Below, piece after piece: positions 1,273 through 36,219 of a DNA stretch of 64,000 nucleotides. The stretch is taken from contig NC_092677.1 of NCBI RefSeq assembly GCF_964355755.1, positions 13,414,101-13,478,100 on the forward strand, in the 5' to 3' direction. Numbering within the stretch: the stretch's first letter is position 1; each line of letters starts with the position of its first letter. Below the pieces are notes generated by a model that saw only the letters and a program-made list of their open reading frames with translations, did no database searches and was not told the DNA's origin. The translations under genes were made by a program, and so were the position numbers. The stretch is from Antedon mediterranea. Lineage: Eukaryota; Animalia; Echinodermata.

Positions 1273-1857
1273 GTGAATATCATCTATTATAACTTTTGCG
1301 TAAATCTCAAAACCAAACACGTACTTTTCACATTCTGGTCTTCGAAAACAAGTTGATGCCTGACCCTGGTTGATCAAATATGGCCGATAAGTACAGTAAA
1401 AAAGTACACCGAGATAAATTTCTCTGTACAATTTAAAAAGATTGATTGATTATGACTATATTATTTCAATATTATTAATTAACTTAATGTCTGAATGTTA
1501 AGTGATCGTTAAACAATAAAGTTGAGCATTTCCCCACCGGATTCTATTATTCTACTATAATATTCAATTACTTAAGAATATTGGTAATTCTGATGATGAG
1601 AAATGGTTGTAAGCTCAAATTAAAGACTGTTTGGATTCTAATGTCCTGTATATTTAGAATTATATTCGACGATCACATCAAAACCCCTCACCACCCCACC
1701 CCTAATCTCCACTATTATCACACTCCTAATAACAAACAATTATAATCGGTTGAACAATTTCTACTTCATAGAACATATTTGATTTTGCAGGAATGAGCAA
1801 GGCCGTTGATTTCAATCTTCTAAAAACGATTGAACATCTTTTCTAATTTTTTTTCAG

Positions 1858-2345
1858 AAGTGAACGAGGATGATTTCAATCTCCTGAAAATGATTGTGTC
1901 AGAGTATTACGATGACAGGAATTGTCTCATTATGCTGAAGGTGTTGTTTAGAGACCATGTGCCTCAATTCAAATTACAAGAAATGAGATCTACAATAGAT
2001 ATGTTAAACGCGTTAGAGGACTCCGGTGATTTAAGTTCAAAAGACATCTCGATAATATACGACACAATCAACTTGACAAAACAATATGCCTTGAAAGATA
2101 AGATACAGAAAGAATTACCATTTCCCAATGTAAGTGGAATACCAATTACCAACTTCACAGAGTACAGACAGAAGATAATGAAACTTGGAATGGAGATAAA
2201 TAGAAGGGATATACATAGAAGTGATATGTATTCTAACAATCCATACAAGGGATACCAAAGTAGTTGGAGAATGATAGACGATTTAGACGACGGCAACATT
2301 CAAACATTGTTGAGTAAACTGAATATGCTGCATTATTGGAATTAA
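1858..2345 (+). CDS. Terminal exon type B (tandem DED-like pair) of DED gene 0; 5' exons lie partly outside the window
   Basis: tttttcag|AA GTG AAC GAG GAT GAT TTC; protein is a clear paralog of 24571-25106 and 48631-49160 (DDF.LLK.IVS.YYD, LNALE.S.DLSS.DISIIYDTINLT, YRQKIMK.G, SSW.MI.DL); short deletion near the C-terminus relative to the paralogs. Confidence 0.75.
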
Positions 2346-3063: not shown

Positions 3064-3433
3064 TTATTTTTTTATTATTATATTTATTTTATGGACGGCG
3101 TCCATTATAAAAGCTAAATATCACTGGGCTACTTTATGTTAAATAAAACAAAGTATGAACATTTAAATGAAGCAATGGTTCATTCAAATAAACATAGTAT
3201 TTTGATTCTTTTTTACATGGAAGTAAGTCTCAGTTTCGTCCTTATATAATCCTAAGTGATACTTAAGGAAAGTGAGTCTGGTAAATTGGTGTTTTTTCTG
3301 CTATAGTGAAACATATCGTACCATGTTTCCGCTTACAGATACGTCTATGTTCGTCTACTTTTCAATACAATAACAATACTAAATAGATCCATTCGCTGAT
3401 CCACAGCATTATCATTTTCAGTAGAATTTGCCA

Positions 3434-4741
3434 TCTATATATAAATTTACGTAAGGGCAAAATTCGGTAAATCGCGCCTTACTTCTAGAATGTTTACTCG
3501 ATGGTATATACAGTTGGTTCGTACTTTCGGTACTGATTTTAACCACCTGATGTAACCCTGTTTACTAATTAAATTGAGTTAGATAATTATTTATTGACGA
3601 TTAAAACGAATTTAGGTTCAACGATTTGCCCCAAATAGGGGTGTTTTCCGATCGTGGTATACACTGTCTAATGGATGTCTAACTTGAAAAATACCCGCAC
3701 ACGATAATACGAGGACGCTTCGCATTTTCCTATCTCCTCCTACGATAATTGTTTTTAATAGCTGTAAACCGGTTGAACTGCTCGAGTACAGCATCATAAT
3801 GTTGAAGACAGGCCGATTTTCTTTTAAAAATACTATTTTGATAGATTTAATTTACGTTTTTACAAATGTATTGATTTGCGATGAATGGAACATTCCAATC
3901 TCTCAGTCTGCCAGTTTGGTTTAACACAAGTAGGTAAATTTATGAGCCCTTGGAGAATAAACTTGCAATACTTTGACAATACAGTACTGCAAATACCTAT
4001 TAACCATTTTTGGTCGTCATTTGAATCGAACATTTCTTACTGTGAATACTGTTAGATGTTATATACAAACATTTCTTACTGTGAATACTGTTAGATGTAA
4101 AAAAATATATACAAATAAACTTTATTACTGTGACTGTGGGTAGGCTCTACTGTTGATATATAAACACGTAATATACAAATAAACTTTATTACTGACAGTT
4201 GCTTCTCAACGTTTGCATTAATTAATAATTACAAAAAATATAAACGTCGTAGTGGTGTATCGTTACATGTACTTTACTATTTCAATCGACTATGACAGTG
4301 ACAGTTTTAACAAAGTATTAAATCGCAAATGTCTTACTATATTTAGTCACCGTTAGTGGTATATTATTTATAGGCCTATAAAAAATGAAAACAATATTTC
4401 GTTACTGACGTGGATAAGAATATATTTAAAAATTGTTCCTCTTTGTACCTATCCTCTTTCCCATCCCTCAACCCTAATTGGGTTTCTTTAAATGAATAAA
4501 CAATTTGGACTCATTTTGTGGTAAGTTTTTCTTTCGGAAGTAATTCCCCGGGTGCTAATTTTGGTTGACTACATAAATCATTGTGTCTATTTATTCGTTT
4601 CTGTAAACGACAATGTATTATAGTCCTGCGGTACGTGCATTTGAAATCGCCAGATATTTTACCCTGAAATTACTGTGTATTCGAGAACCATCTGTGAGCA
4701 CGACCTAGATGGTACGCGAGCGAAGCGAGCGTACCATCTAG
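3434..4741 (+). mobile_element. Non-autonomous Helitron-like element, copy 1
   Basis: A|TC start at 3434 and CTAG|T end at 4741 (AT target, no TSD); 13-bp perfect stem ctagatggtacgc/gcgtaccatctag at 4705-4741; near-identical inverted copy at 31309-32662 confirms the boundaries. Confidence 0.85.
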
Positions 4742-5363: not shown

Positions 5364-6049
5364 GTAAGGATAGTTATTGCATAACATGTTTCAGATGGGT
5401 CCATACCAAAGGAATAATGGCGGATTATTTGATGTTTCAATTCAAAATAGGCTACAGAACATCGCTCATTCCGAACGCGACAAACATGCGAAATAACAAT
5501 ACTATAGGCCTCCTACAATAAAACTTTTATTATCCAAAATTCCAGGGAAATTAATTTCATAACCGTAGTCTTTATATGCATAGTTATCGTTCATCAATTA
5601 TTTACAGTATCGTATTAAATCGTAAGAAATTAGTACTCTACTAGCTAGTCTGTCTTTAATAAATTACACATATTACTATTAGAAAATACAACCTTCGATA
5701 GGCCTCTTATAGAATATGTGCATTCGGTTTGAGCGCCGTGAAGTTGGTTACTTATTCCTTATTCGACATTCGTCAATGGAAGTTGGTTCCTTATTCGACG
5801 TTCGACATTCGCTAGGCTAGGCCAAAATTTCGAAAATGATAATTTCCCAGCGGTAAATATGCCGTGCGCCACCAACCAATCTCCTGCTGGTACTTATTCC
5901 CTATTCGACATTCATTCGTGAAGTTGGTTCCTTATTCGACGTTCGCTAGGCCGCGGCCGACCGGCTGGCCCAAATTCGTACCAAAGTAGACCTAGTGTAG
6001 ATGTACCTATTTTATCACAGATTTACATTTTTTAGTTCCGATATTACGA

Positions 6050-9000
6050 CCATACCAACGCCTCGGGCCGGGTTCACAATAGTATAGATTGACGTAGTAT
6101 GGTCCTGGAATTCCAGAAATGTGCCACTTGCCCCGACCCAGATCGGGCAAGTACGTGTTTTAACGCAATTTCAAATGCGTATTTTTAGCAATAATTTACT
6201 AAGAATTAATAGCACCACTTTTAAAGTGGCCATATGACCACACCCCGACGCCTCGGGCCGGGTACACAATAATATAGATTGACGTAGTATGGTCCTGGCA
6301 TTCCAGAAATGTGCCACTCGCCCCGGCCCAGTGCGGGCAAGTACGGGTTTTAAAGCAATTTAAAATGCGTATTTTTAGTGTTATTTTACTAAGTATTAAT
6401 AGCACCACTTTTAAAGTGGCAATATGACCACACCCCGACGTCTCGGGCCGGCCGCCGGGTACACAATAGTATAGATTGACGTAGTATGGTCCTGGCTTTC
6501 CAGAAATGTGCCACTTGCCCCGGCCCAGTGCGGGCAAGTACGGATTTTAAAGCAATTTAAAATGCGTATTTTTGGCATTAATTTATTAAACACCACTTTT
6601 AAAGTGGCCATATGACCACACCCCGACGCATCGGGCCGGGTACACAATAGTATAGATTGACGTAGTATGGTCCTGGCATTCCAGAAATGTGCCACCTGCC
6701 CCGGCCCAGTGCGTGCAAGTACGTGTTTTAAAGCAATTTCAAATGCGTATTTTTAGCAAAAATTTACTAAGAATTAATAGCACCACTTTTAAAGTGGCCA
6801 TATGACCACACCCCGACGCCTCGGGTCGAGTTCACAATAGTATAGATTGATGTACAATGGTCCTGGCATTCCATAAATGTGCCACTTGCCCCGGCCCAGT
6901 GCGGGCAAGTACGTGTTTAAAAGCAATTTCAAATTCGTATTTTTAGCATTAATTTACTAAGAATTAATAGCACCACTTTTAAAGTGGCCATATGACCACA
7001 CCCCAACGCCTCGGGCCGGGAACACAATAGTATAGATTGACGTAGAATGGTCCTGGCATTCCAGAAATGTGCCACTTGCCCCGGCCCAGTGCGGGCAAGT
7101 ACGGATTTTAAAGCAATTTAAAATGCGTATTTTTAGCATTAATTTAGTAAACACCACTTTGAAAGTGGCCATATGACCACACCCCGACGCCTCGGGCCGG
7201 GTACACAATAGTATAGATTGACTTAGTATGGTCCTGGATTTCCAGAAATGTGCCACTTGCCCCGGCTCAGTGCGGGCAAGTACGTGTTTAAAAGCAATTT
7301 CAAATGCGTATTTTTAGCATTAATTTACTAAGAATTAATAGCACCACATTTAAAGTGGCCATATGACCACACCCCGACGCCTCGGGCCGGGAACACAATA
7401 GTATAGATTAACGTAGTATGGTCCTGGCATTCCAGAAATATGCCACTTGCCCCGGCCCAGTGCGGGCAAGTACGGATTTTAAAGCAATTTAAAATGCGTA
7501 TTTTTAGCATTAATTTAGTAAACACCACTTTTAAAGTGGCCATATGACCACACCCCGACGCCTCGGGCCGGGTACACAATAGTATAGATTGACGTAGTAT
7601 GGTCCTGGCTTTCCAGAAATGTGCCACTTGCCCCGGCCCAGTGCGGGAAAGTACGGATTTTAAAGCAATTTAAAATGCGTGTTTTTAGTGTTATTTTACT
7701 AAGTATTAATAGCACCACTTTTAAAGTGGCAATATGACCACACCCCGACGCCTCGGGCCGGATTCACAATAGTATGGATTGACGTAGAATGGTCCGGACA
7801 TTCCAGAAATGTGCCACTTGCCCCGGCCCAGTGCGGGCAAGTACGGGTTTTAAAGCAATTTAAAATGCGTATTTTTAGTGTTATTTTACTAAGTATTAAT
7901 AGCACCACTTTTAAAGTGGCAATATGACCGCACCCCGACGCCTCGGGCCGGGTACACAATAGTATAGATTGACGTAGTATGGTCCTGGCTTTCCAGAAAT
8001 GTGCCACTTGCCCCGGCCCAGGGCGAGTACGGATTTTAAAGCAATTTAAAATGCGTATTTTTGGCATTAATTTAGTAAACACCACTTTTAAAGTGGCCAT
8101 ATGACCACACCCCGACGCATCGGGCCGGGTACACAATAGTATAGATTGACGTAGTATGGTCCTGACATTCTAGAAATGTGCCACCTGCCCCGGCGGCCCA
8201 GTGCGTGCAAGTACGTGTTTTAAAGCAATTTCAAATGCGTATTTTTAGCAAAAATTTACTAAGAATTAATAGCACCACTTTTAAAGTGGCCATATGACCA
8301 CACCCCGACGCCTCGGGTCGGGTTCACAATAGTATAGATTGATGTAGAATGGTCCTGGCATTCCATAAATGTGCCACTTGCCCCGGCCCAGTGCGGGCAA
8401 GTAAGTGTTTAAAAGCAATTTCAAATGCGTATTTTTAGCATTAATTTACTAAGAATTAATAGCACCACATTTAAAGTGGCCATATGACCACACCCCGACA
8501 CCTCGGGCCGGGAACACAATAGTATAGATTGACGTAGTATGGTCCTGGCATTCCAGAAATATGCCACTTGCCCCGGCCCAGTGCGAGCAAGTACTGATTT
8601 TAAAGCAATTTAAAATGCGTATTTTTAGCATTAGTAAACACCACTTTTAAAGTGGCCATATGACCACACCCCGACGCCTCGGGCCGGGTACACAATAGTA
8701 TAGATTGACGTATTATGGTCCTGGCTTTCCAGAAATGTGCCACTTGCCCCGGCCCAGTGCGGGCAAGTACGTGTTTAAAAGCAATTTCAAATGCGTATTT
8801 TTAGCATTAATTTACTAAGAATTAATAGCACCACATTTAAAGTGGCCATATGACCACACCCCGACGCCTCGGGCCGGGAACACAATAGTATAGATTGACG
8901 TAGTATGGTCCTGGCATTCCAGAAATATGCCACTTGCCCCGGCCTAGTGCGGGCAAGTACGGATTTTAAAGCAATTTAAAATGCGTATTTTTAGCATTAA

Positions 9001-9312
9001 TTTAGTAAACACCACTTTTAAAGTGGCCATATGACCACACCCCGATGCCTCGGGCCGGGTACACAATAGTATAGATTGACGTAGTATGGTCCTGGCTTTC
9101 CAGAAATGTGCCACTTGCCCCGGCCCAGTGCGGGCAAGTACGGATTTTAAAGCAATTTAAAATGCGTATTTTTAGCATTAATTTAGTAAACACCACTTTT
9201 AAAGTGGCCATATGACCACACCCCGATGCCTCGGGCCGGGTACACAATAGTATAGATTGACGTAGTATGGTCCTGGCTTTCCAGAAATGTGCCACTTGCC
9301 CCGGCCCAGTGC
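6050..9312 (-). repeat. Minisatellite array, left arm (about 17-18 units of 181/190 bp)
   Basis: Recurring tttaaagtggccatatgaccacaccccgacgcctcgggccggg..ccagaaatgtgccacttgccccggcccagtgcgggcaagtac. Confidence 0.95.
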
Positions 9313-12300
9313 AAGTGGCATATTTCTGGAATGTCAGGACCATTCTACGTCAATCCATACTATTGTGAACCCGGCCCGAGGCGTCGGGGTGTGGTCATAT
9401 TGCCACTTTAAAAGTAGTGCTGTTAATACTTAGTAAAAAAACACTAAATATACGCATTTTAAATTGCTTTAAAACACGTACTTGTCCGCACTGGGCCGGG
9501 GCAAGTGGCACATTTCTGGAATGCCAGGACAATACTACGTCAATATATACTATTGTGTACCCGGCCCGAGGCGTCGGGGTGCGGTCATATGGCCACTTTA
9601 AAAGTGGTGTTTACTAAATTAATGCTAAAAATACGCATTTTAAATTGCTTTAAAACACGTACTTGCCCGCACTGGGCCGGGGCAAGTGGCATATTTCTGG
9701 AATGCCAGGACCATTCTACGTCAATCTATACTATCGTGAACCCGGCCCGAGGCGTCGGGGTGTGGTCATATGGCCACTTTAAAAGTGGTGCTATTAATTC
9801 TTAGTAATTATTGGTAAAAATACTCATTTGAAATTGCTTTAAAACACGTACTTGCCCGCACTGGGCCGTGGCAGGTGGCACATTTATGGCATGTCAGGAC
9901 CATTCTACATCAATCTATACTATTGTGAACCCGGCCCGAGGCGTCGGGGTGTGGTCATATTGCCATTTTAAAAGTGGTGCTATTAATACTTAGTAAAATA
10001 ACACTAAAAACACGCATTTTAAATTGCTTTAAAATCCGTACTTGCCCGCACTGGGCCGGGGCAAGTGGCACATTTCTGGAATGCCAGGACCATACTACGT
10101 CAATCTATACTATCGTGAACCCGACTCGAGGCGTCGGGGTGTGGTCATATGGCCACTTTAAAAGTGGTGTTTACTAAATTAATGCTAAAAATACGCATTT
10201 TACCCGCACTGGGCCGGGGCAAGTGGCACATTTCTGGAATGCCAGGACCATACTACGTCAACCTATACTATTGTGTACCCGGCCCGAGGCGTCGGAGTGT
10301 GGTCATATGGCCACTTTAAATGTGGTGCTTTTAATTATTCTTAGTAAATTAATGCTAAAAATACGCATTTGAAATTGCTTTTAAACACGTACTTTCCCGC
10401 AATGGGCTGGGGCAAGTGGCACATTTATGGAATGCCAGGACCATTCTACATCAATCTATACTATTGTGAACCCGACCCGAGGCGTCGGGGTGTGGTCATG
10501 GCCACTTTAAAACTGGTGTTTACTATATTAATGCTAAAAATACGCATTTTAAATTGCTTTAAAATCCGTACTTGCCCGCACTGGGCCGTTGCAAGTGGCA
10601 CATTTCTGGAAAGCCAGGACCATACTACGTCAATCTATAATATTGTGTATCCGGCCTGAGGCGTCGGGGTGTGGTCATATGGCCACTTTAAAAGTGGTGC
10701 TATTATAATACTTAGTTAAAATAACACTAAAAATACACATTTTAAATTGCTTTAAAACACGTACTTGCCCGCACTGGGCCGGGACAAGTGGCACATTTCT
10801 GGAATGCCAGGACCATACTACGTCAATCTATATTATCGTGAACCCGACCCGAAGCGTCGGTGTGTGGTCATATTATGGCCACTTTAAAAGTGGTGTTTAC
10901 TAAATTAATGCTAAAAATACGCATTTGAAATTGCTTTTAAACACGTACTTGCCCGCACTGGGCCGGGGCAAGTGGCACATTTCTGGAAAGCCAGGACCAT
11001 ACTGCGTCAATCTATACTATTGTGTACCCGGCCCGAGGCGTCGGGGTGTGGTCATATGGCCACTTTAAAAGTGGTGCTATTAATACTTAGTAAAATAACA
11101 CTAAAAATACGCATTTTAAATTGCTTTAAAACACGTACTTGCCCCCACTGGGCCGGGGCAAGTGGCACATTTCTAGAAAGTCTGGACCTTTCTACGTCAA
11201 TCCATACTATTGTGAACCCGGCCCGAGGCGTCGGGGTGTGGTCATATTGCCACTTTAAAAGTGGTGCTATTAATACTTAGTAAAATAACACTAAAAATAC
11301 GCATTTTAAATTGCTTTAAAATCCGTACTTGCCCGCACTGGGCCGGGGCAAGTGGCATATTTCGGGAATGCCAGGACCATACTACGTTAATCCATACTTG
11401 TGTTCCCGGCCCGAGGCGTCGGGGTGTGGTCATATGGCCACTTTAAATGTGGTGCTATTAATTCTTAGTAAATTAATGCTAAAAATACGCATTTGAAATT
11501 GATTTTAAACACGTACTTGCCCGCACTGGGCCGGGGCAAGTGGCACATTTCTGGAAAGCCAGGACCATACTAAGTCAATCTATACTATTGTGTACCCGGC
11601 CCGAGGCGTCGGGGTGTGGTCATATGGCCACTTTAAAAGTGGTGTTTACTAAATTAATGCTAAAAATACGCATTTTAAATTGCTTTAAAATCCGTACTTG
11701 CCCGCACTGGGCCGGGGCAAGTGGCACATTTCTGGAATGCCAGGACCATTCTACGTCAATCTATACTATTGTGTTCCCGGCCCGAGGCGTTGGGGTGTGG
11801 TCATATGGCCACTTTATAAGTGGTGCTATTAATTCTTAGTAAATAATGCTAAAAATACGCATTTGAAATTGCTTTTAAACACGTACTTGCCCGCACTGGG
11901 CCGGGGCAAGTGGCACATTTCTGGAAAGTCAGGACCATACTACGTCAATCTATACTATTGTGTACCCGGCCCGAGGCGTCGGGGTGTGGTCATATGGCCA
12001 CTTTAAAAGTGGTGTTTACTAAATTATTGCCAAAAATACGCATTTTAAATTGCTTTAAAATCCGTACTCGCCCGCACTGGGCCGGGGCAAGTGGCACATT
12101 TCTAGAAAGTCTGGACCTTTCTACGTCAATCTATATTATTGTGTACCCGGCCCGAGGCGTCGGGGTGTGGTCATATTGCCACTTTAAAAGTGGTGCTATT
12201 AATACTTAGTAAAATAACACTAAAAATACGCATTTTAAATTGCTTTAAAATCCGTACTTGCCCGCACTGGGCCGGGGCAAGTGGCATATTTCTGGAATGC

Positions 12301-15300
12301 CAGGACCATACTACGTTAATCTATACTATTGTGTTCCCGGCCCGAGGCGTCGGGGTGTGGTCATATGGCCACTTTAAATGTGGTGCTATTAATTCTTAGT
12401 AAATTAATGCTAAAAATACGCATTTGAAATTGATTTTAAACACGTACTTGCCCGCACTGGGCCGGGGCAAGTGGCACATTTCTGGAAAGCCAGGACCATA
12501 CTAAGTCAATCTATACTATTGTGTACCCGGCCCGAGGCGTCGGGGTGTGGTCATATGGCCACTTTAAAAGTGGTGTTTACTAAATTAATGCTAAAAATAC
12601 GCATTTTAAATTGCTTTAAAATCCGTACTTGCCCGCACTGGGCCGGGGCAAGTGGCACATTTCTGGAATGCCAGGACCATTCTACGTCAATCTATACTAT
12701 TGTGTTCCCGGCCCGAGGCGTTGGGGTGTGGTCATATGGCCACTTTAAAAGTGGTGCTATTAATTCTTAGTAAATTAATGCTAAAAATACGCATTTGAAA
12801 TTGCTTTTAAACACGTACTCTCCCGCACTGGGCCGGGGCAAGTGGCACATTTCTGGAAAGTCAGGACCACACTACGTCAATCTATACTATTGTGTACCCG
12901 GCCCGAGGCGTCGGGGTGTGGTCATATGGCCACTTTAAAAGTGGTGTTTACTAAATTAATGCCAAAAATACGCATTTTAAATTGCTTTAAAATCCGTACT
13001 CGCCCGCACTGGGCCGGGGCAAGTGGCACATTTCTAGAAAGTCTGGACCTTTCTACGTCAATCTATATTATTGTGTACCCGGCCCGAGGCGTCGGGGTGT
13101 GGTCATATTGCCACTTTAAAAGTGGTGCTATTAATACTTAGTAAAATAACACTAAAAATACGCATTTTAAATTGCTTTAAAATCCGTACTTGCCCGCACT
13201 GGGCCGGGGCAAGTGGCATATTTCTGGAATGCCAGGACCATACTACGTTAATCTATACTATTGTGTTCCCGGCCCGAGGCGTCGGGGTGTGGTCATATGG
13301 CCACTTTAAATGTGGTGCTATTAATTCTTAGTAAATTAATGCTAAAAATACGCATTTGAAATTGATTTTAAACACGTACTTGCCCGCACTGGGCCGGGGC
13401 AAGTGGCACATTTCTGGAAAGCCAGGACCATACTAAGTCAATCTATACTATTGTGTACCCGGCCCGAGGCGTCGGGGTGTGGTCATATGGCCACTTTAAA
13501 AGTGGTGTTTACTAAATTAATGCTAAAAATACGCATTTTAAATTGCTTTAAAATCCGTACTTGCCCGCACTGGGCCGGGGCAAGTGGCACATTTCTGGAA
13601 TGCCAGGACAATTCTACGTCAATCTATACTATTGTGTTCCCGGCCCGAGGCGTTGGGGTGTGGTCATATGGCCACTTTAAAAGTGGTGCTATTAATTCTT
13701 AGTAAATTAATGCTAAAAATACGCATTTGAAATTGCTTTTAAACACGTACTTGCCCGCACTGGGCCGGGGCAAGTGGCACATTTCTGGAAAGTCAGGACC
13801 ACACTACGTCAATCTATACTATTGTGTACCCGGCCCGAGGCGTCGGGGTGTGGTCATATGGCCACTTTAAAAGTGGTGTTTACTAAATTAATGCCAAAAA
13901 TACGCATTTTAAATTGCTTTAAAATCCGTACTCGCCCGCACTGGGCCGGGGCAAGTAGCACATTTCTGGAAAGTCAGGACCATACTACGTCAATCTATAC
14001 TATTGTGTACCCGGCCCGAGGCGTCGGGGTGTGGTCATATTGCCACTTTAAAAGTGGTGCTATTAATACTTAGTAAAATAACACTAAAAATACGCATTTT
14101 AAATTGCTTTAAAATCCGTACTTGCCCGCACTGGTGGGCCGAGGCAAGTGGCATATTTCTGGAATGCCAGGACCATACTACGTTAATCTATACTATTGTG
14201 TACCCGGCCCGAGGCGTCGGGGTGTGGTCATATGGCCACTTTAAATGTGGTGCTATTAATTCTTAGTAAATTAATGCTAAAAATACGCATTTGAAATTGA
14301 TTTTAAACACGTACTTGCCCGCACTGGGCCGGGGCAAGTGGCACATTTCTGGAAAGCCAGGACCATACTAAGTCAATCTATACTATTGTGTACCCGGCCC
14401 GAGGCGTCGGGGTGTGGTCATATGGCCACTTTAAAAGTGGTGTTTACTAAATTAATGCTAAAAATACGCATTTTAAATTGCTTTAAAATCCGTACTTGCC
14501 CGCACTGGGCCGGGGCAAGTGGCACATTTCTAGAAAGTCTGGACCTTTCTACGTCAATCTATATTATTGTGTTCCCGGCCCAAGGCGTTGGGGTGTGGTC
14601 ATATGGCCACTTTAAAAGTGGTGCTATTAATTCTTAGTAAATTAATGCTAAAAATACGCATTTGAATTTGCTTTTAAACACGTACTTGCCCGCACTGGGC
14701 CGGGGCAAGTGGCACAATTCTGGAAAGTCAGGACCATACTACGTCAATCTATACTATTGTGTACCCGGCCCGAGGCGTCGCGGTGTGGTCATATGGCCAC
14801 TTTAAAAGTGGTGTTTACTAAATTAATGCCAAAAATACGCATTTTAAATTGCTTTAAAATCCGTACTCGCCCGCACTGGGCCGGGGCAAGTGGCACATTT
14901 CTGGAAAGCCAGGACCATACTACGTCAATCTATACTATTGTGTACCCGGCCCGAGGCGTCGGGGTGCGGTCATATGGCCACTTTAAAAGTGATGCTATTA
15001 ATACTTAGTAAAATAACACTAAAAATACGCATTTTAAAATGCTTTAAAACTCGTACTTGCCCGCACTGGGCCGGGGAAAGTGGCACATTTCTGGAATGCC
15101 AGGACCATACTACGTCAATCTATATTATTGTGTACCCGGCCCGAGGCGTCGGGGTGTGGTCATATGGCCACTTTAAAAGTGGTGCTATTAATACTTAGTA
15201 AAATAACACTAAAAATACGCATTTTAAATTGCTTTAAAACACGTACTTGCCCGCACTGGGCCGGGGCAAGTGGCACATTTCTAGAAAGTCTGGACCTTTC

Positions 15301-18300
15301 TACGTCAATCCATACTATTGTGAACCCGGCCCGAGGCGTCGGGGTGTGGTAATATTGCCACTTTAAAAGTGGTGCTATTAATACTTAGTAAAATAACACT
15401 AAAAATACGCATTTAAAATTGCTTTAAAATCCGTACTTGCCCGCACTGGGCCGGGGCAAGTGGCATATTTCTGGAATGCCAGGACCATACTACGTTAATC
15501 TATACTATTGTGTTCCCGGCCCGAGGCGTCGGGGTGTGGTCATATGGCCACTTTAAATGTGGTGCTATTAATTCTTAGTAAATTAATGCTAAAAATACGC
15601 ATTTGAAATTGCTTTAAAACACGTACTTGCCCGCACTGGGCCGGGACAAGTGGCACATTTCTGGAATGCCAGGACCATACTACGTCAATCTATATTATCG
15701 TGAACCCGACCCGAAGCGTCGGTGTGTGGTCATATTATGGCCACTTTAAAAGTGGTGTTTACTAAATTAATGCTAAAAATACGCATTTGAAATTGCTTTT
15801 AAACACGTACTTGCCCGCACTGGGCCGGGGCAAGTGGTACGTTTATGGAATGCCCGGACCATTCTACATCAATCTATACTATTGTGAACCCGACCCGAGG
15901 CGTCGGGGTGTGGTCATATGGCCACTTTAAAAGTGGTGTTTACTAAATTAATGCTAAAAATACGCATTTTAAATTGCTTTAAAATCCGTTCTTGCCCGCA
16001 CTGGGCCGGGGCAAGTGGCACATTTCTGAAAAGCCAGGACCATACTGCGTCAATCTATACTATTGTGTACCCGGCCCGAGGCGTCGGGGTGTGGTCATAT
16101 GGCCACTTTAAAAGTGGTGCTATTAATACTTAGTAAAATAACACTAAAAATACGCATTTTAAATTGCTTTAAAACACGTACTTGCCTGCACTGGGCCGGG
16201 GCAAGTGGCACATTTCTAGAAAGTCTGGACCTTTCTACGTCAATCCATACTATTGTGAACCCGGCCCGAGGCGTCGGGGTGTGGTCATATTGCCACTTTA
16301 AAAGTGGTGCTATTAATACTTAGTAAAATAACACTAAAAATACGCATTTGAAATTGCTTTTAAACACGTACTTGCCCGCACTGGGCCGGGGCAAGTGGCA
16401 CATTTCTGAAAAGTCAGGAACATACTACGTCAATCTATACTATTGTGTACCCGGCCCGAGGCGTCGGGGTGTGGTCATATGGCCACTTTAAAAGTGGTGT
16501 TTACTAAATTAATGCCAAAAATACGCCTTTTAAATTGCTTTAAAACACGTACTTGCCCGCACTGGGCCGGGGCAAGTGGCACATTTCTGGAATGCCAGGA
16601 CCATACTACGTCAATCTATATTATCGTGAACCCGACCCGAAGCGTCGGTGTGTGGTCATATTATGGCCACTTTAAAAGTGGTGTTTACTAAATTAATGCT
16701 AAAAATACGCATTTGAAATTGCTTTTAAACACGTACTTGCCCGCACTGGGCCGGGGCAAGTGGCACGTTTATGGAATGCCAAGACCATTCTACATCAATC
16801 TATACTATTGTGAACCCGACCCGAGGCGTCGGGGTGTGGTCATATGGCCACTTTAAAAGTGGTGTTTACTAAATTAATGCTAAAAATACGCATTTTAAAT
16901 TGCTTTAAAATCCGTACTTGCCCGCACTGGGCCGGGGCAAGTGGCACATTTCTGGAAAGCCAGGACCATACTGCGTCAATCTATACTATTGTGTACCCGG
17001 CCCAAGGCGTCGGGGTGTGGTCATATGGACACTTTAAAAGTGGTGCTATTAATACTTAGTAAAATAACACTAAAAATACGCATTTTAAATTGCTTTAAAA
17101 CACGTACTTGCCCGCGCTGGGCCGGGGCAAGTGGCACATTTCTAGAAAGTCTGGACCTTTCTACGTCAATCCATACTATTGTGAACCCGGCCCGAGGCGT
17201 CGGGGTGTGGTCATATTGCCACTTTAAAAGTGGTGCTATTAATACTTAGTAAAATAACACTAAAAATACGCATTTTAAATTGCTTTAAAATCCGTACTTG
17301 CCCGCACTGGGCCGGGGCAAGTGGCATATTTCTGGAATGCCAGGACCATACTACGTTAATCTATACTATTGTGTTCCCGGCCCGAGGCGTCGGGGTGTGG
17401 TCATATGGCCACTTTAAATGTGGTGCTATTAATTCTTAGTAAAAAATTAATTAATGCTAAAAATACGCATTTGAAATTGCTTTTAAACACGTACTTGCCC
17501 GCACTGGGCCGGGGCAAGTGGCACATTTCTGGAAAGCCAGGACCATACTAAGTCAATCTATACTATTGTGTACTCGGCCCGAGGCGTCAGGGTGTGGTCA
17601 TTATGGCCACTTTAAAAGTGGTGTTTACTAAATTAATGCTAAAAATACGCATTTTAAATTGCTTTAAAATCCGTACTTGCCCGCACTGGGCCGGGGCAAG
17701 TGGCACATTTCTGGAATGCCAGGACCATTCTACGTCAATCTATACTATTGTGTTCCCGGCCCGAGGCGTTGGGGTGTGGTCATATGGCCACTTTAAAAGT
17801 GGTGCTATTAATTCTTAGTAAATTAATGCTAAAAATACGCATTTGAAATTGCTTTTAAACACGTACTTGCCCGCACTGGGCCGGGGCAAGTGGCACATTT
17901 CTGAAAAGTCAGGAACATACTACGTCAATCTATACTATTGTGTACCCGGCCCGAGGCGTCGGGATGTGGTCATATGGCCAGTTTAAAAGTGGTGTTTACT
18001 AAATTAATGCCAAAAATACACATTTTAAATTGCTTTAAAATCCGTACTCGCCCGCACTGGGCCGGGGCAAGTGGCAAATTTCTGGAAAGCCAGGACCATA
18101 CTACGTCAATCTATACTATTGTGTACCCGGCCCGAGGCGTCGGGGTGCGGTCATATTGCCACTTTAAAAGTGGTGCTATTAATACTTAGTAAAATAACAC
18201 TAAAAATACGCATTTTAAATTGCTTTAAAACCCGTACTTGCCCGCACTGGGCCGGGGAAAGTGGCACATTTCTGGAATGCCAGGACCATACTACGTCAAT

Positions 18301-21300
18301 CTATATTTTTGTGTACCCGGCCCGAGGCGTCGGGGTGTGGTCATATGGCCACTTTAAAAGTGGTGCTATTAATACTTAGTAAAATAACACTAAAAATACG
18401 CATTTTAAATTGCTTTAAAACACGTACTTGCCCGCACTGGGCCGGGGCAAGTGGCACATTTCTGGAATGTCCGGACCATTCTACGTCAATCCATACTATT
18501 GTGAATCCGGCCCGAGGCGTCGGGGTGTGGTCATATTGCCACTTTAAAAGTGGTGCTATTAATACTTAGTAAAATAACACTAAAAATACGCATTTAAAAT
18601 TGCTTTAAAATCCGTACTTGCCCGCACTGGGCCGGGGCAAGTGGCATATTTCTGGAATGCCAGGACCATACTACGGTAATCTATACTATTGTGTTCCCGG
18701 CCCGAGGCGTCGGGGTGTGGTCATATGGCCACTTTAAATGTGGTGCTATTAATTCTTAGTAAATTAATGCTAAAAATACGCATTTGAAATTGCTTTAAAA
18801 CACGTACTTGCTCGCACTGGGCCGGGACAAGTGGCACATTTCTGGAATGCCAGGACCATACTACGTCAATCTATATTATCGTGAACCCGACCCGAAGCGT
18901 CGGTGTGTGGTCATATTATGGCCACTTTAAAAGTGGTGTTTACTAAATTAATGCTAAAAATACGCATTTGAAATTGCTTTTAAACACGTACTTGCCCGCA
19001 CTGGGCCGGGGCAAGTGGCACGTTTATGGAATGCCCGGACCATTCTACATCAATCTATACTATTGTGAACCCGACCCGAGGCGTCGGGGTGTGGTCATAT
19101 GGCCACTTTAAAAGTGGTGTTTACTAAATTAATGCTAAAAATACGCATTTTAAATTGCTTTAAAATCCGTTCTTGCCCGCACTGGGCCGGGGCAAGTGGC
19201 ACATTTCTGAAAAGCCAGGACCATACTGCGTCAATCTATACTATTGTGTACCCGGCCCGAGGCGTCGGGGTGTGGTCATATGGCCACTTTAAAAGTGGTG
19301 CTATTAATACTTAGTAAAATAACACTAAAAATACGCATTTTAAATTGCTTTAAAACACGTACTTGCCTGCACTGGGCCTGGGCAAGTGGCACATTTCTAG
19401 AAAGTCTGGACCTTTCTACGTCAATCCATACTATTGTGAACCCGGCCCGAGGCGTCGGGGTGTGGTCATATTGCCACTTTAAAAGTGGTGCTATTAATAC
19501 TTAGTAAAATAACACTAAAAATACGCATTTGAAATTGCTTTTAAACACGTACTTGCCCGCACTGGGCCGGGGCAAGTGGCACATTTCTGAAAAGTCAGGA
19601 ACATACTACGTCAATCTATACTATTGTGTACCCGGCCCGAGGCGTCGGGGTGTGGTCATATGGCCACTTTAAAAGTGGTGTTTACTAAATTAATGCCAAA
19701 AATACGCCTTTTAAATTGCTTTAAAACACGTACTTGCCCGCACTGGGCCGGGGCAAGTGGCACATTTCTGGAATGCCAGGACCATACTACGGCAATCTAT
19801 ATTATCGTGAACCCGACCCGAAGCGTCGGTGTGTGGTCATATTATGGCCACTTTAAAAGTGGTGTTTACTAAATTAATGCTAAAAATACGCATTTGAAAT
19901 TGCTTTTAAACACGTACTTGCCCGCACTGGGCCGGGGCAAGTGGCACGTTTATGGAATGCCAAGACCATTCTACATCAATCTATACTATTGTGAACCCGA
20001 CCCGAGGCGTCGGGGTGTGGTCATATGGCCACTTTAAAAGTGGTGTTTACTAAATTAATGCTAAAAATACGCATTTTAAATTGCTTTAAAATCCGTACTT
20101 GCCCGCACTGGGCCGGGGCAAGTGGCACATTTCTGGAAAGCCAGGACCATACTGCGTCAATCTATACTATTGTGTACCCGGCCCAAGGCGTCGGGGTGTG
20201 GTCATATGGCCACTTTAAAAGTGGTGCTATTAATACTTAGTAAAATAACACTAAAAATACGCATTTTAAATTGCTTTAAAACACGTACTTGCCCGCGCTG
20301 GGCCGGGGCAAGTGGCACATTTCTGGAAAGCCAGGACCATACTACGTCAATCCATACTATTGTGAACCCGGCCCGAGGCGTCGGGGTGTGGTCATATTGC
20401 CACTTTAAAAGTGGTGCTATTAATACTTAGTAAAATAACACTAAAAATACGCATTTTAAATTGCTTTAAAATCCGTACTTGCCCGCACTGGGCCGGGGCA
20501 AGTGGCACATTTCTGGAATGCCAGGACCATTCTACGTCAATCTATACTATTGTGTTCCCGGCCCGAGGCGTTGGGGTGTGGTCATATGGCCACTTTAAAA
20601 GTGGTGCTATTAATTCTTAGTAAATTAATGCTAAAAATACGCATTTGAAATTGCTTTTAAACACGTACTTGCCCGCACTGGGCCGGGGCAAGTGGCACAT
20701 TTCTGAAAAGTCAGGAACATACTACGTCAATCTATACTATTGTGTACCCGGCCCGAGGCGTCGGGGTGTGGTCATATGGCCACTTTAAAAGTGGTGTTTA
20801 CTAAATTAATGCCAAAAATACACATTTTAAATTGCTTTAAAATCCGTACTCGCCCGCACTGGGCCGGGGCAAGTGGCACATTTCTGGAAAGCCAGGACCA
20901 TACTACGTCAATCTATACTATTGTGTACCCGGCCCGAGGCGTCGGGGTGCGGTCATATTGCCACTTTAAAAGTGGTGCTATTAATACTTAGTAAAATAAC
21001 ACTAAAAATACGCATTTTAAATTGCTTTAAAACCCGTACTTGCCCGCACTGGGCCGGGGAAAGTGGCACATTTCTGGAATGCCAGGACCATACTACGTCA
21101 ATCTATATTTTTGTGTACCCGGCCCGAGGCGTCGGGGTGTGGTCATATGGCCACTTTAAAAGTGGTGCTATTAATACTTAGTAAAATAACACTAAAAATA
21201 CGCATTTTAAATTGCTTTAAAACACGTACTTGCCCGCACTGGGCCGGGGCAAGTGGCACATTTCTGGAATGTCCGGACCATTCTACGTCAATCCATACTA

Positions 21301-22635
21301 TTGTGAATCCGGCCCGAGGCGTCGGGGTGTGGTCATATTGCCACTTTAAAAGTGGTGCTATTAATTCTTAGTAAATTAATGCTAAAAATACGCATTTTAA
21401 ATTGCTTTTAAACACGTACTTGCCCGCACTGGGCCGGGGCAAGTGGCACATTTCTGGAAAGTCAGGACCATACTACGTCAATCTATACTATTGTGTACCC
21501 GGCCCGAGGCGTCGGGGTGTGGTCATATGGCCACTTTAAAAGTGGTGTTTACTAAATTAATGCCAAAAATACGCATTTTAAATTGCTTTAAAATCCGTAC
21601 TTGCCCGCACTGGGCCGGGGCAAGTGGCACATTTCTGGAATGCCAGGACCATACTACGGCAATCTATATTATCGTGAACCCGACCCGAAGCGTCGGTGTG
21701 TGGTCATATTATGGCCACTTTAAAAGTGGTGTTTACTAAATTAATGCTAAAAATACGCATTTGAAATTGCTTTTAAACACGTACTTGCCCGCACTGGGCC
21801 GGGGCAAGTGGCACATTTCTGGAAAGTCAGGACCATACTACGTCAATCTATACTATTGTGTACCCGGCCCGAGGCGTCGGGGTGTGGTCATATGGCCACT
21901 TTAAAAGTGGTGTTTACTAAATTAATGCCAAAAATACGCATTTTAAATTGCTTTAAAATCCGTACTCGCCCGCACTGGGCCGGGGCAAGTGGCACATTTC
22001 TGGAAAGCCAGGACCATACTACGTCAATCTATACTATTGTGTACCCGGCGGCCGGCCCGAGACGTCGGGGTGTGGTCATATTGCCACTTTAAAAGTGGTG
22101 CTATTAATACTTAGTAAAATAACACTAAAAATACGCATTTTAAATTGCTTTAAAACCCGTACTTGCCCGCACTGGGCCGGGGCAATTGGCACATTTCTGG
22201 AATGCCAGGACCATACTACGTCAATCTATATTATTGTGTACCCGGCCCGAGGCGTCGGGGTGTGGTCATATGGCCACTTTAAAAGTGGTGCTATTAATTC
22301 TTAGTAAATTATTGCTAAAAATATGCATTTGAAATTGCTTTAAAACACGTACTTGCCCGCACTGGGCCGGGGCAGGTGGCACATTTCTGGAATGCCAGGA
22401 CCATACTACGTCAATCTATACTATTGTGTACCCGACGCGAGGCGTCGGTGTGTGGTCATATGGCCACTTTAAAAGTGGTGTTTACTAAATTAATTCTAAA
22501 AATACGCATTTTAAATTGCTTTAAAATCCGTACTTGCCCGATCTGGGTCGGGGCAAGTGGCACATTTCTGGAATTCCAGGACCATACTACGTCAATCTAT
22601 ACTATTGTGAACCCGGCCCGAGGCGTTGGTATGGT
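9313..22635 (+). repeat. Minisatellite array, right arm (about 70 units of 181/190 bp, with higher-order repeats)
   Basis: Reverse complement of the left-arm unit; 181-bp (gtggtgtttactaaatt) and 190-bp (gtggtgctattaat.cttagtaaa) variants; ORF-track echoes recur at about 932-bp and 3181-bp spacing. Confidence 0.95.
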
Positions 22636-23364
22636 CGTAATATCGGAACTAAAAAACGTAAATCTGTGATAAAATAGGTACATCTACACTAGGTCTACTT
22701 TGGTACGAATTTGGGCCAGCCGGTCGGCCGCGGCCTAGCGAACGTCGAATAAGGAACCAACTTCACGAATGAATGTCGAATAGGGAATAAGTAACAGCAG
22801 GAGATTGGTTGGTGGCGCACGGCATATTTACCGCTGGGAAATTATCATTTTCGAAATTTTGGCCTAGCCTAGCGAATGTCGAACGTCGAATAAGGAACCA
22901 ACTTCCATTGACGAATGTCGAATAAGGAATAAGTAACCAACTTCACGGCGCTTTCGGTTTGTCAGGTTGATTCATTATTTACAATCATAGAGATATTATA
23001 GTGAACTCTGTTCACAGTGCATGGGACTGAATAAATATTAAACTGATAAGGCGAGTATGGTCCTCTCGAAATGTGTTTATCATAATAATAGGGCTTATAG
23101 ACATAATAACATATTTGTATTACTCATGTCTAAAGGATACTGTTTAAAGATGCTGTAAATACACAATAATAAAACAGGATGCTGAAGTTTCTTATATCTG
23201 TGGCTGCGACACGATCAGTTCCATGCCTTACAGATAAGTGTACAATACTGTTGGTATTTGTCGCAGTCATACATAAGATCAAAGGACGAGTTTCCATCTT
23301 GGCAACATGTTTCTGTAGATTGTCTTGGTAGGTAATTATAAACTAAATTCTTTTCAGTAACAAA

Positions 23365-23890
23365 ATGGATGATAGCTTTACAGACTTTCGACAAGAATTC
23401 AGTAATGCTTATCCCGGGGATAGAAGACGGGAGTTGAGATTTCTTCTGCATTATCATCTACCGATTGGTTTATTGTCTAAGGAACACAACTCAGGAATAG
23501 ATTTGTTTAATGAACTTAAAACTAAAGGCATCATCACATACAATAATGTTAAAATTATGTCAGAAATTGCAGACGTGACAGAAAACGCCGACGCAAAAGC
23601 AAGTGTAACTAAATACAAAAAGGAAGTTGGTAAAGACTATGATGGCAAGGGTGGGAAAAGTTTGTCTTCACATCGTAAAACTTTCTATAAAGCTATGGAT
23701 GAAATCACGGAAGAATTAGACGGGGGTGATGTACATAAGTTGGTTGGCTACTACGGATTGGGCTCACAAGGCAAGACAAATAAATGGAATTTAGTGTTTT
23801 ATTTAGAGAAAGAGTTAAAATTAAACACACGGAAGAAACTGGAGAGATTTGCCAATCAGTTGAATGCGAGTGCAAAAGTCAAATTGCTTG
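23365..23890 (+). CDS. DED gene 1, first coding exon type A (tandem DED-like pair)
   Basis: ttttcag|taacaaaATG; donor CTT G|gtatgt. ELRFLL..SGIDLFNEL..GII...NV.IMSEI resembles the FADD DED (ELKFLC..SGLDLF); LSSHRK.FY resembles the start of caspase-8 DED2. Confidence 0.85.
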
Positions 23891-24281
23891 GTATGTATGT
23901 AAAACAGTGCTATTAATGTATATTTAAATTAATATCAAATAACAGCATAAAATTGTTTACTTATAATTTTAGTAGATAACTACAATATTGTTTTGTATGG
24001 CCAGCATATATAGCTGACCACATATCGGACTAAATTTGCAATTACAGTATATATATTTTTGTTCAAGAAGGGGGGCGGGGGGAGCGGGAGAACGATTGAT
24101 GATAAGTTCTAAACTTTTGGTCTCTGTCTGGATAAAAAAATGTATATCTTACAGTATGTTAATTTGTTGTTGGAAATAAAACATTAATGTATTGTAACTA
24201 AAAAGATAATTCGAACCTGTTTATATAAATTTGTTCTTCTGTATCGGTTATTCAACTATTGTTCTTATTTACATGATGCAG

Positions 24282-24335
24282 GTGAACAACCAGTTGCTGG
24301 TGGGGGTGCCGTGGAAGCAACATCAACAGCAGCAG
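24282..24335 (+). CDS. DED gene 1 linker micro-exon (GEQPVAGGGAVEATSTAA)
   Basis: gcag|GT..GCA G|gtaagt; 54 nt, phase 1-1. Confidence 0.75.
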
Positions 24336-24570
24336 GTAAGTATCTCTTTGAACCGACTAAGTTTGTATTATACAATGCATTGAGAAAAATGTCTGAATGA
24401 ATACTCAAATTTTCCTAAGCGTTTCAGCCTAAATTTACGATTCATAAAACCGATAACATATATAGGCCTACAATGAGAACGAGGAAAAATGCCATATACC
24501 ATTTTTCAATATTTTTGTTCACAAATGAACGGATTGAGTCCAATTAACAAACCTTTTTCCTGATTTGCAG

Positions 24571-25106
24571 AATTGACCGACGATGATTACAAGCTTTTCA
24601 AAACGACCGTGTCAGCGTATTACGATAACAGACCGGATTGCCGTATTATGTTGATGGTGCTGTTTGGAGACCATGTTCCTACACAAAATCATAAAACACG
24701 TAATAGTACAATAGATTGGTTAAATGCGTTAGAGGAATCTGATGATCTAAGTTCTGATGACATCTCTATCGTATATGATACAATAAACCTGACAGCACAT
24801 TATGCTTTACAAAAGAAGATCAAAAAAGAAAAACTATCATTTCCAGAAGTTAGGCCAATAGAAATTACCAACTTCAGCAATTACAGACAGAAGATAATGA
24901 AATTTGGAAAGGGAATAACTTCAAAAGATGTAGCAAAGATTGATGGGTACTATAACAATCCAGTTAAGAAATACGAAAGTAGTTGGGGAATGATATATGA
25001 TTTAGAATTTGAGCAATCAATCTTCAAAGAAAGCAACATCGACGAATTTGTTGCAAAGTTGAAGCAATTGAAACTTCCGTCAAGCCCGGCAGAATTGTTG
25101 GAATAA
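24571..25106 (+). CDS. DED gene 1 terminal exon type B (tandem DED-like pair); spliced CDS 526+54+536=1116 nt, 371 aa
   Basis: tttgcag|AA TTG ACC GAC GAT; in frame with the upstream exons to TAA at 25106. Confidence 0.85.
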
Positions 25107-29311: not shown

Positions 29312-30240
29312 ATAAAACTTTTTGCAGACGACACCAAGTTGTATAGAGTGGTCAATAACATTGATGATGCGGATTTATTTCAAAGAGACATTGACAGTGC
29401 TTCCCATTGGTCTAATGTTTGGCAATTGCCTTTTAATGACATTAAGTGTAAGGTATTTCATTATGGTCGTGATAATCCCAATTTCTTGTATTCAATGGCT
29501 GGTAATTTACTACATGAGGTAAAGCAGGAGAAAGATCTAGGTGTTACCTTTGATCCTAGTTTAATCTTTAATTTGCATGTAGCGGATATTTGTAAAAGAG
29601 CTAATAAGAAACTAGGAATGATTTATAGGTCTTTTAAATTCTTGAATAAAGATGGATTTTTGAAGCTGTATAAGTCTATTGTCAGGCCAACGCTTGAATA
29701 TTGTAACACTCTTTATAATCCTATTAGAAAACGAGATCAGGATGAAATAGAGAAGGTCCAGCAAAGAGCAACAAGATTGATTCCTAGGTACCGTAATATT
29801 CCTTATGAACAACGTTTGAGAATTCTTGGTCTTCCTACCATGAGATATCGAAGGCAGAGAGCAGATATTATCCAAGTTTTTAGGATTGTTAAAGGTTTCG
29901 ATCGTATTTCGATCAACACATTTTTTGAATTTGATCTAGAATCTCGGGCCCGTGGACACCCATATAAACTCAAGTTTAAAAGCTCTCGTCTTAATATTAG
30001 GAGGGACACGTTCTCCAGGAGAGTTATTCTCTTATGGAATGCTCTGCCTACGGATGTAGTTTCATGTGCTACGGTGAACTTGTTCAAAGCAAAACTTAAC
30101 GTCGCATGGTCTAACCACCCGCTGAAGTTTTCACCCTATATAGAATATGATTTTATTGCTAAGAGGGGCTTTTAAGCACTGAGTGCTTCGCCTCGATCCC
30201 GTAGACGAAAGTGTACGGGAAACAAGTAAACAAGTAAACA
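29312..30240 (+). mobile_element. 5'-truncated CR1-type LINE (RT C-terminal half, open to stop at 30175)
   Basis: LFADDTKLY, EKDLGV, LYKSIVRPTLEY, IEKVQQRATRLIP, RGHPYKL, WNALP motifs; 3' stem-loop cccgta..tacggg followed by an (AAACAAGT)n tail. Confidence 0.9.
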
Positions 30241-35669: not shown

Positions 35670-36219
35670 TTAATGGGACGCTCTAGCGTTTGAGCTTGGT
35701 GTGCACAGACTCCCACAATTCAAATGAAAACACCAGACCTGACTCTCTCGAACATAAAGTTAAATTTATAAAACACATGTAATGACTTTTTGAATTAATG
35801 TAGGCCTACTGTAACACCAAACGTTTCACAATTGTTGAGGACATTGATGGGCGTCTTAATTTAGGCTACCAAACTTTAGAACAGAAATGAAAACAAGAAC
35901 GCATTGTACAAAAATGCTTGTTAATAAGTTTTATACAAACTTGCAAAGGCAGACGCCATTGTAAATACATATATAATTAGGCCTACACATTAAATTTGAT
36001 TTAATTTTATCGTGATAAATAATACCATATAATAGTATTATTATTATTAATACTATATCCTTTAATAAAGCTTGATGATATTACGTTGAAAAGGGTAACA
36101 TAACGTATGATTTTACCAACTAATAAAAAAATGTATTGGACCAGTGGTTATTATATTCATTTTGTAAATTGAAACGACAGTCTTAATTAAGAAAATAGAA
36201 TTTCTTTTTCAGTAACATA

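What the first reader, a model, noticed from the sequence alone, without database searches (positions are those of the whole stretch)
5732..22952. 17.2-kb satellite-filled foldback element with an intact 9-bp TSD
Seen: TTCGGTTTG directly flanks both ends; the outer ~320 bp are near-perfect inverted copies containing short subterminal repeats (gaagttggtt.cttatt..cgac); everything inside is one 181/190-bp minisatellite in opposite orientations; rare unit variants are mirrored (extra GGCC-GCC insertion at about 6450 and about 22050). No transposase is present. Known: Drosophila FB and sea-urchin TU foldback elements have modular inverted arms with internal tandem repeats, and 9-bp TSDs are typical of FB/Mutator-type transposases. 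Inference: a young, unusually large non-autonomous element acting as a mobile satellite seed.
Basis: partly seen in the sequence, partly recalled or inferred. Interest (0 to 1): 0.8.

Follow-up and report, generated by a model that had tools for sequence, protein, structure and literature searches.

The report
Satellite-filled foldback transposon in intron
A 17-kb gene-less stretch made of two opposed satellite-repeat arrays, with matching transposon-style ends and a duplicated 9-base target, likely jumped recently, using an enzyme made elsewhere, into what is likely the first intron of an immune-type gene of a likely feather star; it is a large, clean example of a design already described in flies and beetles.

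Summary
Real, and a known kind. 5732-22952 lies between two copies of a 9-mer found nowhere else in the window. Its ends are inverted copies (422 of 424 bases alike). All the rest is one 181/190-bp unit: about 17.5 copies forward and 71.4 reverse, meeting head-to-head at 9311-9312 with no middle domain and no transposase. Both junctions stand in public contigs. In a related organism one contig appears to join the two flanks across a single 9-mer (deduced from coordinates and depth), so the target duplication is likely genuine. The arm contig is about 17-30 times deeper than the junctions, so roughly ten elements are likely. Corrections: the arms are very unequal (3.6 vs 13.6 kb), and mirroring stops after about three units; inside, each arm grew by its own 5-, 8-, 15- and 17-unit duplications. 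It sits in a likely 5'-UTR intron of a death-effector-domain gene. Best reading: a non-autonomous Mutator/Rehavkus-type foldback, like Tetris and Tribolium TfSat06 elements. Superfamily, interior length, central junction and other copies' TSDs are untested. This scan noted similar elements before on other DNA, one in this genome.

The parts
5723..5731 (+). left copy of the 9-bp target site duplication
   Evidence: junction contigs 5624/5626-5758 in runs X1, X3
5732..6057 (+). left non-satellite terminal inverted repeat (326 bp) with 3 copies of a 21-bp subterminal motif (5740, 5779, 5920) and a partial fourth (about 5891-5913); first 40 bp likely shared with further elements
   Evidence: depth step and loose ends at 5771 in 4 of 4 runs
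6058..9312 (+). left satellite array, 17.5 copies of the 181/190-bp unit, with an older 8-unit duplication
9311..9312 (.). head-to-head junction of the two arrays, no spacer, 2-base (GC) overlap, inside the unit's own 8-bp inverted repeat
   Evidence: not verified in reads
9311..22626 (-). right satellite array, 71.4 copies, with near-identical 5-unit (932 bp), 15-unit (2802 bp) and 17-unit (3181 bp) duplications; the 8 innermost units are divergent
22627..22952 (-). right non-satellite terminal inverted repeat
   Evidence: junction contig 22925-23009 in X3
22953..22961 (+). right copy of the 9-bp target site duplication
   Evidence: organism B contigs are laid from 22953 on with 75 further letters before it
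5364..23357 (+). likely host intron (GTAAG donor, TTTTCAG acceptor): 17,994 bp with the element, 764 bp without
   Evidence: splice signals, similar donor region upstream of a paralogue; two X5 contigs leave the stretch at 5363 and go on with the first 13 letters of the exon at 23358
23358..23916 (+). first coding exon (ATG at 23365) of a death-effector-domain gene, one of a cluster of paralogues
   Evidence: (PF01335, E 2e-05, below the curated cut-off)

Best explanation
This is a gene-less element with inverted ends, two opposed satellite arrays and a 9-bp duplicated target, likely a non-autonomous cut-and-paste foldback transposon that a Mutator/Rehavkus-type transposase encoded elsewhere likely inserted recently into a likely 5'-UTR intron of a death-effector-domain gene. 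Shown: boundaries, inverted ends, 9-mer on both sides, no coding capacity, both junctions in public contigs. Inferred: (1) the enzyme binds the terminal ~40 bp and the short subterminal motifs, as shown for Muta1; the 190-bp unit lacks that motif and is likely cargo; (2) an ancestor had two satellite-bearing arms around a middle domain, which was lost, with part of the left arm, by a deletion joined at a 2-base overlap; (3) each arm grew by its own multi-unit duplications (unequal exchange or slippage); (4) most of the array (about 12 kb or more) existed before the jump, and the newest duplications of the right arm may post-date it.
For: TSD and ends. Left junction: a contig spans 5624-5758 (X1, depth 127.9) and 5626-5758 (X3, 27.4) with 0 differences. 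Right junction: 22925-23009 (X3, depth 31, 0 differences). Family: in X3 one contig runs 5732-6087, starts exactly at the terminus and has depth 535; ratios of arm to junction depth are 17-30 over 4 comparisons. Two further joints link shortened arms to the unit (5882 to 6112 in X1 and X3; 5951 to 6058 in X1). Empty site: in 2 of 2 organism B runs laid on the right side, one 362-letter contig covers 22953-23244 and has 75 more letters before 22953. In X7 its depth (197) equals that of the only cover of 5688-5730, and the neighbouring contig ends at 5677, which with a 30-letter overlap puts its start at 5648, exactly 75 letters before 5723. Second allele in X3: cover of 22965-22978 is 64.6 against 31 for the junction contig, which suggests the insertion is on one chromosome only. 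Deletion rather than fresh fold-back: the partial units facing each other at the centre differ at 5 of 54 bases, and inner mirror pairs at 7-22 per unit (17 pairs); the 8 innermost right units are far from any neighbour (mean 7.9 differences vs 1.3 for 56 middle units, p=6e-6), like an old array edge, while the innermost left units are ordinary (3). Older cargo: 64 clusters remain of 88 units at 1 difference or less; the left 8-unit duplication differs by 3-6 per unit over 6 pairs, 12 at the seventh. Mechanism analogy: PMC5499845, PMC4079207, PMC12581902.
Against: No transposase was found: no whole genome is held, and none of the 33 window ORFs scanned, of 67 listed, hit a DDE family. Only one TSD pair was seen. 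The letters of the empty-site contig were not printed, so that step is a deduction. The junction contigs reach 27-28 letters into the arm, below the tool's 31-letter bar for 'bridging'. Runs X1 and X3 are one sample and may be the source of the assembly. The tool warns that contig depth is no copy number. No strand-switch joint matching 9311 was listed. The dates of the arm differences (0.28% per arm, 95% 0.03-1.0) and of the 17-unit duplication (0.14%, 0.04-0.35) overlap, so the size at the jump is not fixed.
Confidence: 0.8

Rival explanations
1. A short element inserted and the satellite arrays grew in place afterwards, by local duplication and by exchange with arrays elsewhere; the 17 kb never moved as one piece.
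For: The right arm holds near-identical blocks (4 differences in 1481 bp at offset 17 units; 650 bp exact at offset 932), and mirroring ends after ~3 units. Duplication and end dates overlap.
Against: 64 distinct unit clusters at 1 difference or less, mean 14.8 differences between units, and a 2-3% diverged duplication in the left arm are much older than ends that differ by 0.5%. They would all have to be imported.
Confidence: 0.15
2. Same anatomy, but moved by another superfamily (P/Galileo, hAT, Merlin), since foldback structure arose more than once.
For: PMC4079207 and PMC5499845 state that foldbacks also occur outside Mutator (P superfamily). No transposase is at hand here.
Against: 9 bp fits MULE (8-11 bp) and Rehavkus (9 bp) (PMC6446971); hAT is mostly 8 bp. 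Galileo's shorter TSD is recalled, from no call.
Confidence: 0.2
3. The satellite is older than this element and was captured by its ends (satellite as passenger), rather than born from the ends as proposed for Tetris.
For: No similarity between the 326-bp arm and the unit beyond 8-base chance words. In organism B run X7 the unit is abundant and tandem while 5903-6031 of the arm has no cover at 85% likeness.
Against: A part without cover in contigs proves nothing. Organism B has a diverged arm end (5732-5882, 15 changes and 5 gap letters) whose contig stops at 5882, the place where a shortened arm joins the unit in organism A, so B's arrays may sit in older relatives. This rival concerns origin only and is compatible with the best explanation.
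Confidence: 0.4
4. The ends are real but the interior is misassembled (wrong copy number, or a collapsed middle domain).
For: No record spans the element; the centre was not seen in reads; near-identical 3-kb blocks are what assemblers get wrong.
Against: Duplicated blocks carry their own differences (4 in 1481 bp; 78 distinct units of 88). Both ends share one TSD and face inwards, so a strand switch must lie somewhere inside.
Confidence: 0.07

Closest known systems
TfSat06 elements and Rehavkus-1_TC / -3_TC of Tribolium (PMC12581902: passages; supplement legends S14, S16 and table rows. PMC10218199: passages)
   Same: Satellite arrays of 140-170-bp units form long inverted termini of a DNA transposon, sometimes over 11 kb; transposition is proposed as the way the satellite spreads.
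   Different: Those elements keep a central part; here there is none and the arrays meet directly. Different host group and unit. Here an empty site is likely seen. No sequence comparison with Rehavkus was made.
Tetris of Drosophila virilis (PMC4079207: parts 1-2 of 6 of the text; passages)
   Same: Non-autonomous; outer flanking domain followed by ~220-bp tandem units in each arm; 8-10-bp TSDs; no transposase found; assigned to Mutator by TSD length.
   Different: Tetris arms reach 1.7 kb and flank a middle domain; long arrays are mostly in rearranged copies; its unit shares 37 bp with the outer domain. Here both ends and the TSD are intact around 89 units, and unit and arm share nothing detectable.
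Muta1 of Aedes aegypti (PMC5499845: passages) and Tm1 of Meloidogyne (PMC3169594: passages)
   Same: Foldback-type MULEs with short subterminal repeats in the ends and 8-9-bp TSDs; in Muta1 these repeats aid transposase binding and excision.
   Different: Their repeats are 12-15 bp and the elements 1-3 kb; both families have a known transposase. They model the 326-bp ends here, not the 190-bp arrays.
Drosophila FB and sea-urchin TU elements (named in PMC4079207; original papers not read, details recalled)
   Same: Modular inverted arms with internal repeats, often without coding middle.
   Different: Their repeats are recalled as short; not compared here.

Membership tests
Foldback elements (structural class) | long inverted arms ending exactly at the element's termini | tested here: met
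   422 of 424 alike; whole left arm 91% alike to the right over 3.6 kb
Foldback elements (structural class) | modular arms with internal tandem repeats of unequal number | tested here: met
   17.5 vs 71.4 units; short subterminal motifs
Foldback elements (structural class) | target site duplication made by insertion | tested here: met
   9-mer on both sides; single copy at the likely empty site, deduced
Foldback elements (structural class) | dispersed copies with the same ends | tested here: inconclusive
   arm contig starts at 5732 and is 17-30 times deeper than the junctions; no second copy was read
Mutator/MULE superfamily | 8-11-bp TSD (PMC6446971) | tested here: met
   9 bp, one insertion only
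Mutator/MULE superfamily | long TIRs (over 100 bp) | tested here: met
   326 bp of non-satellite arm
Mutator/MULE superfamily | autonomous partner with MULE DDE transposase and the same ends | not testable with these tools
   no whole genome held; none in 33 of 67 window ORFs scanned
Rehavkus | 9-bp TSD, 26-400-bp TIR, subterminal tandem repeats (PMC6446971 Table 1; PMC12581902) | tested here: met
Rehavkus | transposase with PHD finger; sequence likeness to Repbase Rehavkus; known hosts arthropods and annelids | not testable with these tools
   no coding part, no Repbase here; the host is likely an echinoderm (one hit)
hAT | predominant 8-bp TSD (PMC5499845) | tested here: not met
   9 bp; extending or shifting the match fails
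Tetris-type origin of the satellite | unit derived from the arm's outer domain | tested here: not met
   only 7-8-base words shared, E 1.4 or worse

The most novel reading that the evidence does not exclude
The ends captured an older satellite and now carry it, without any middle domain, in jumps of 12-17 kb; about ten such elements disperse this satellite through the genome, this copy is still on one chromosome only, and by placing a 3.6-kb inverted repeat in the pre-mRNA of an immune-type gene it silences or mis-splices that allele: a satellite delivered by transposition with an immediate effect on a gene.
Probability: 0.15. Interest if true: 0.6.

Novelty: new member of a known kind. Interest (0 to 1): 0.33.

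Why it matters
How satellite arrays reach new, gene-rich places is an open question. Transposition of foldback elements has been proposed (Tetris, Tribolium), mostly from rearranged or fixed copies. This copy has intact ends, a TSD, a likely empty site and a readable duplication history, so it can test whether many kb of satellite move in one jump and how fast an arm then grows. Its place in a likely intron of an immune-type gene, probably on one chromosome only, allows an allele-against-allele test of what a multi-kb hairpin does to a transcript. The design itself is not new.

Tried and rejected
No whole genome is held, so other copies, their TSDs and an autonomous partner could not be sought. 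Rfam: 0 matches at E up to 1 on 5600-6900, so no sign that the unit or arm comes from a known RNA. Pfam: 0 of 7 array ORFs; they are chance frames of the repeat. A protein search with the exon next to the element gave 0 of 72 candidates; a paralogous exon gave 1 of 654. The protein Atlas gave no answer. Two papers were not held, so FARE and TU originals were not read. No RNA holder was listed as such; X5 is only guessed to be RNA, and its cover of arm and unit is no evidence of transcription. X5 has no cover at either junction flank: no verdict on presence in that sample. The central junction is absent from the 13 joints, but the reference unit laid there differs from both sides of the junction and 83 loose ends were not shown: inconclusive. 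Summed unit depth (thousands of times the flank) was not used as a copy number. A fresh fold-back (template switch) at the centre was rejected because the facing units are not mirror copies. A perfect mirror over the whole left arm was rejected. Look-ups of earlier findings by sequence returned nothing. A likeness of the first bases to the Drosophila FB end is recalled only and was not tested.
Full report
Observation. The element runs from 5732 to 22952 (17,221 bp). The 9-mer TTCGGTTTG stands directly outside both ends and nowhere else in the window; its chance from flank composition is 3.2e-6. The ends are reverse complements with 2 differences in 424 bases. The first 326 bp are non-satellite and hold 3 copies of a 21-bp motif that is absent from the array and from the rest of the window. 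Tandem Repeats Finder gives 17.5 copies forward (6058-9312) and 71.4 reverse (9311-22626) of a 190-bp consensus; the unit covers every base between the two arms. There is no coding capacity: the longest stop-free frame is 156 aa, 0 of 7 array ORFs hit Pfam, and Rfam finds nothing on arm and first units.

Inside the arrays. The 88 full units differ by 14.8 positions on average. Each arm has its own higher-order pattern: offsets of 932, 2802 and 3181 bp in the right arm, with exact matches of up to 650 bp and 4 differences in 1481 bp for the 17-unit duplication; an older 8-unit duplication in the left arm (3-6 differences per unit over six pairs, 12 at the seventh). The arms still share unit types (exact matches of up to 225 bp), so they come from one pool. 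At the centre the arrays meet with no spacer and a 2-base overlap, inside an 8-bp inverted repeat of the unit. The facing partial units differ at 5 of 54 bases (the script printed 6 of 55; the last letter lies across the junction), so this is not a fresh template switch. The 8 innermost right units are much more divergent than the 56 middle ones (7.9 vs 1.3 differences to the nearest unit, p=6e-6), while the innermost left units are ordinary. I infer a deletion that removed a middle domain and part of the left arm and left the right arm's old inner edge.

Is it a real insertion? No whole genome is held. Eight public runs hold part of the left end, four of one sample of organism A, one of a second sample, three of organism B; all are contigs. 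In organism A, contigs join left flank to arm (5624-5758 in X1, 5626-5758 in X3) and arm to right flank (22925-23009 in X3) with no difference, reaching 27-28 letters into the arm, which is under the tool's 31-letter bar. X1 and X3 are one sample and may be the assembly's source. In X3 a single contig covers 5732-6087, begins exactly at the terminus and is 17-20 times deeper than the junction contigs; X1 gives 21-30. Taken loosely, since the tool warns against copy numbers, this is about 20 arms, or ten elements. The first 40 bp are deeper still, with loose ends at 5771 in 4 of 4 runs, so further elements share the very end. In 2 of 2 organism B runs laid on the right side, a 362-letter contig is laid from 22953, the first base of the 9-mer, to 23244, with 75 letters left before it. 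In X7 its depth, 197, is that of the cover of 5688-5730, and the neighbouring contig ends at 5677; a 30-letter overlap puts the start at 5648, 75 letters before 5723. I deduce an empty site with one 9-mer; the letters themselves were not printed. In X3 the right flank has a second allele beside the junction contig (64.6 against 31 at 22965-22978), which suggests that the insertion is on one chromosome, but no empty allele was seen directly there. The central junction and the length of the interior were not verified.

Surroundings. The window is an animal gene cluster of death-effector-domain exons with LINE and tyrosine-recombinase retroelement fragments. One paralogous exon has a single database hit, a DED-NACHT-LRR protein of the feather star Antedon mediterranea (35% identity), so the host is likely a crinoid and the genes likely immune receptors; only the DED part of that protein matched the window. 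A splice donor at 5364 and an acceptor at 23357 enclose the element; the region around the donor resembles regions upstream of paralogues. Two contigs of X5 leave the stretch at 5363 and go on with letters whose first 13 match the exon at 23358; the rest of that consensus mixes two contigs, so a paralogue's transcript is possible. The intron would be 764 bp without the element and 17,994 bp with it. A transcript through it could pair over 3.6 kb at 91% identity; no effect was tested.

Mechanism. Shown: ends, TSD, absence of genes, junctions. Inferred: a transposase made elsewhere pairs the two ends, cuts and inserts with a 9-base stagger. Short subterminal repeats strengthen binding and excision in Muta1 (PMC5499845, passages); the 21-bp motif is the candidate here, and the 190-bp unit, which lacks it, is likely cargo. 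A 9-bp TSD fits MULEs (8-11 bp) and Rehavkus (9 bp) (PMC6446971, passages), but foldback anatomy also occurs in the P superfamily, so membership is not settled. How much moved? 64 unit clusters remain at 1 difference or less, about 12 kb, and much of the array's divergence exceeds that of the ends, so most of the array likely predates the jump. The newest duplications cannot be dated against the insertion (intervals overlap). Whether the satellite was born from the ends or captured is open: arm and unit share no sequence, and X7 holds the unit in tandem without cover on the inner arm, but absence in contigs proves nothing.

Comparison and novelty. Tetris (PMC4079207; parts 1-2 of 6 and passages) has the same layout with a ~220-bp unit and 8-10-bp TSDs. 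In Tribolium, TfSat06 arrays form inverted termini of sometimes more than 11 kb in Rehavkus-like elements, and transposition is proposed for their spread (PMC12581902; passages and supplement legends; the figures themselves were not seen). The present element differs in having no middle part and in its host group. I found no paper on such an element in crinoids, but the searches were narrow: 2 papers, listing only; 1 paper; 15 of 17 listed, 3 of them read as passages; 7 and 8 listed. Earlier unchecked notes of this scan describe the same design in other genomes and a 19.4-kb element with 181/186-bp units in this genome; I could not test whether it shares these ends. They are not counted as support.

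Verdict. Observation confirmed with two corrections; interpretation supported; a new member of a known kind; interest 0.33.

Noticed in passing
window 1824-2345, 23347-25106, 36199-38228, 41086-44220, 47226-49160, 59393-60016: A tandem cluster of paralogous genes with pairs of death-effector-domain exons (about 74-82% alike in DNA); the one database hit is a DED-NACHT-LRR protein, but no NACHT or LRR match was found in the window.
   Followed up: partly
window 3432-4705 and 31315-32664 (opposite strands): Two copies of a ~1.3-kb non-coding element, 93-94% alike, starting near TC and ending near CTAG, with a 46-bp tandem repeat in one copy: looks like a non-autonomous Helitron-type element (label recalled).
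   Followed up: partly
window 52526-57834: A 68-82-bp palindromic tandem repeat followed by two broken tyrosine-recombinase retroelement fragments (RNase H-like and integrase ORFs; DIRS/Ngaro type, label recalled), GC-rich against the surroundings.
   Followed up: partly
window 29219-30175, 50721-52209, 61582-63204: LINE-type reverse transcriptase fragments (PF00078 in two of the three regions).
   Followed up: no
window 5732-5771: The first 40 bp of the arm are shared with further elements in all four runs laid, which part from this one at 5771; the autonomous partner may be among them.
   Followed up: partly
window 5757-5857, 5882-6112, 5951-6058: Joints in organism A contigs point to shortened derivatives in which a cut arm runs straight into the satellite unit.
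   Followed up: no
window 22895-22952 (run X5): One contig holds a head-to-tail repeat of the element's last 58 bases with 8 other letters between.
   Followed up: no
window 23195-23290: Two short pieces of a very high-copy repeat lie in the right flank, with depth thousands of times the flank in 4 of 4 runs.
   Followed up: no
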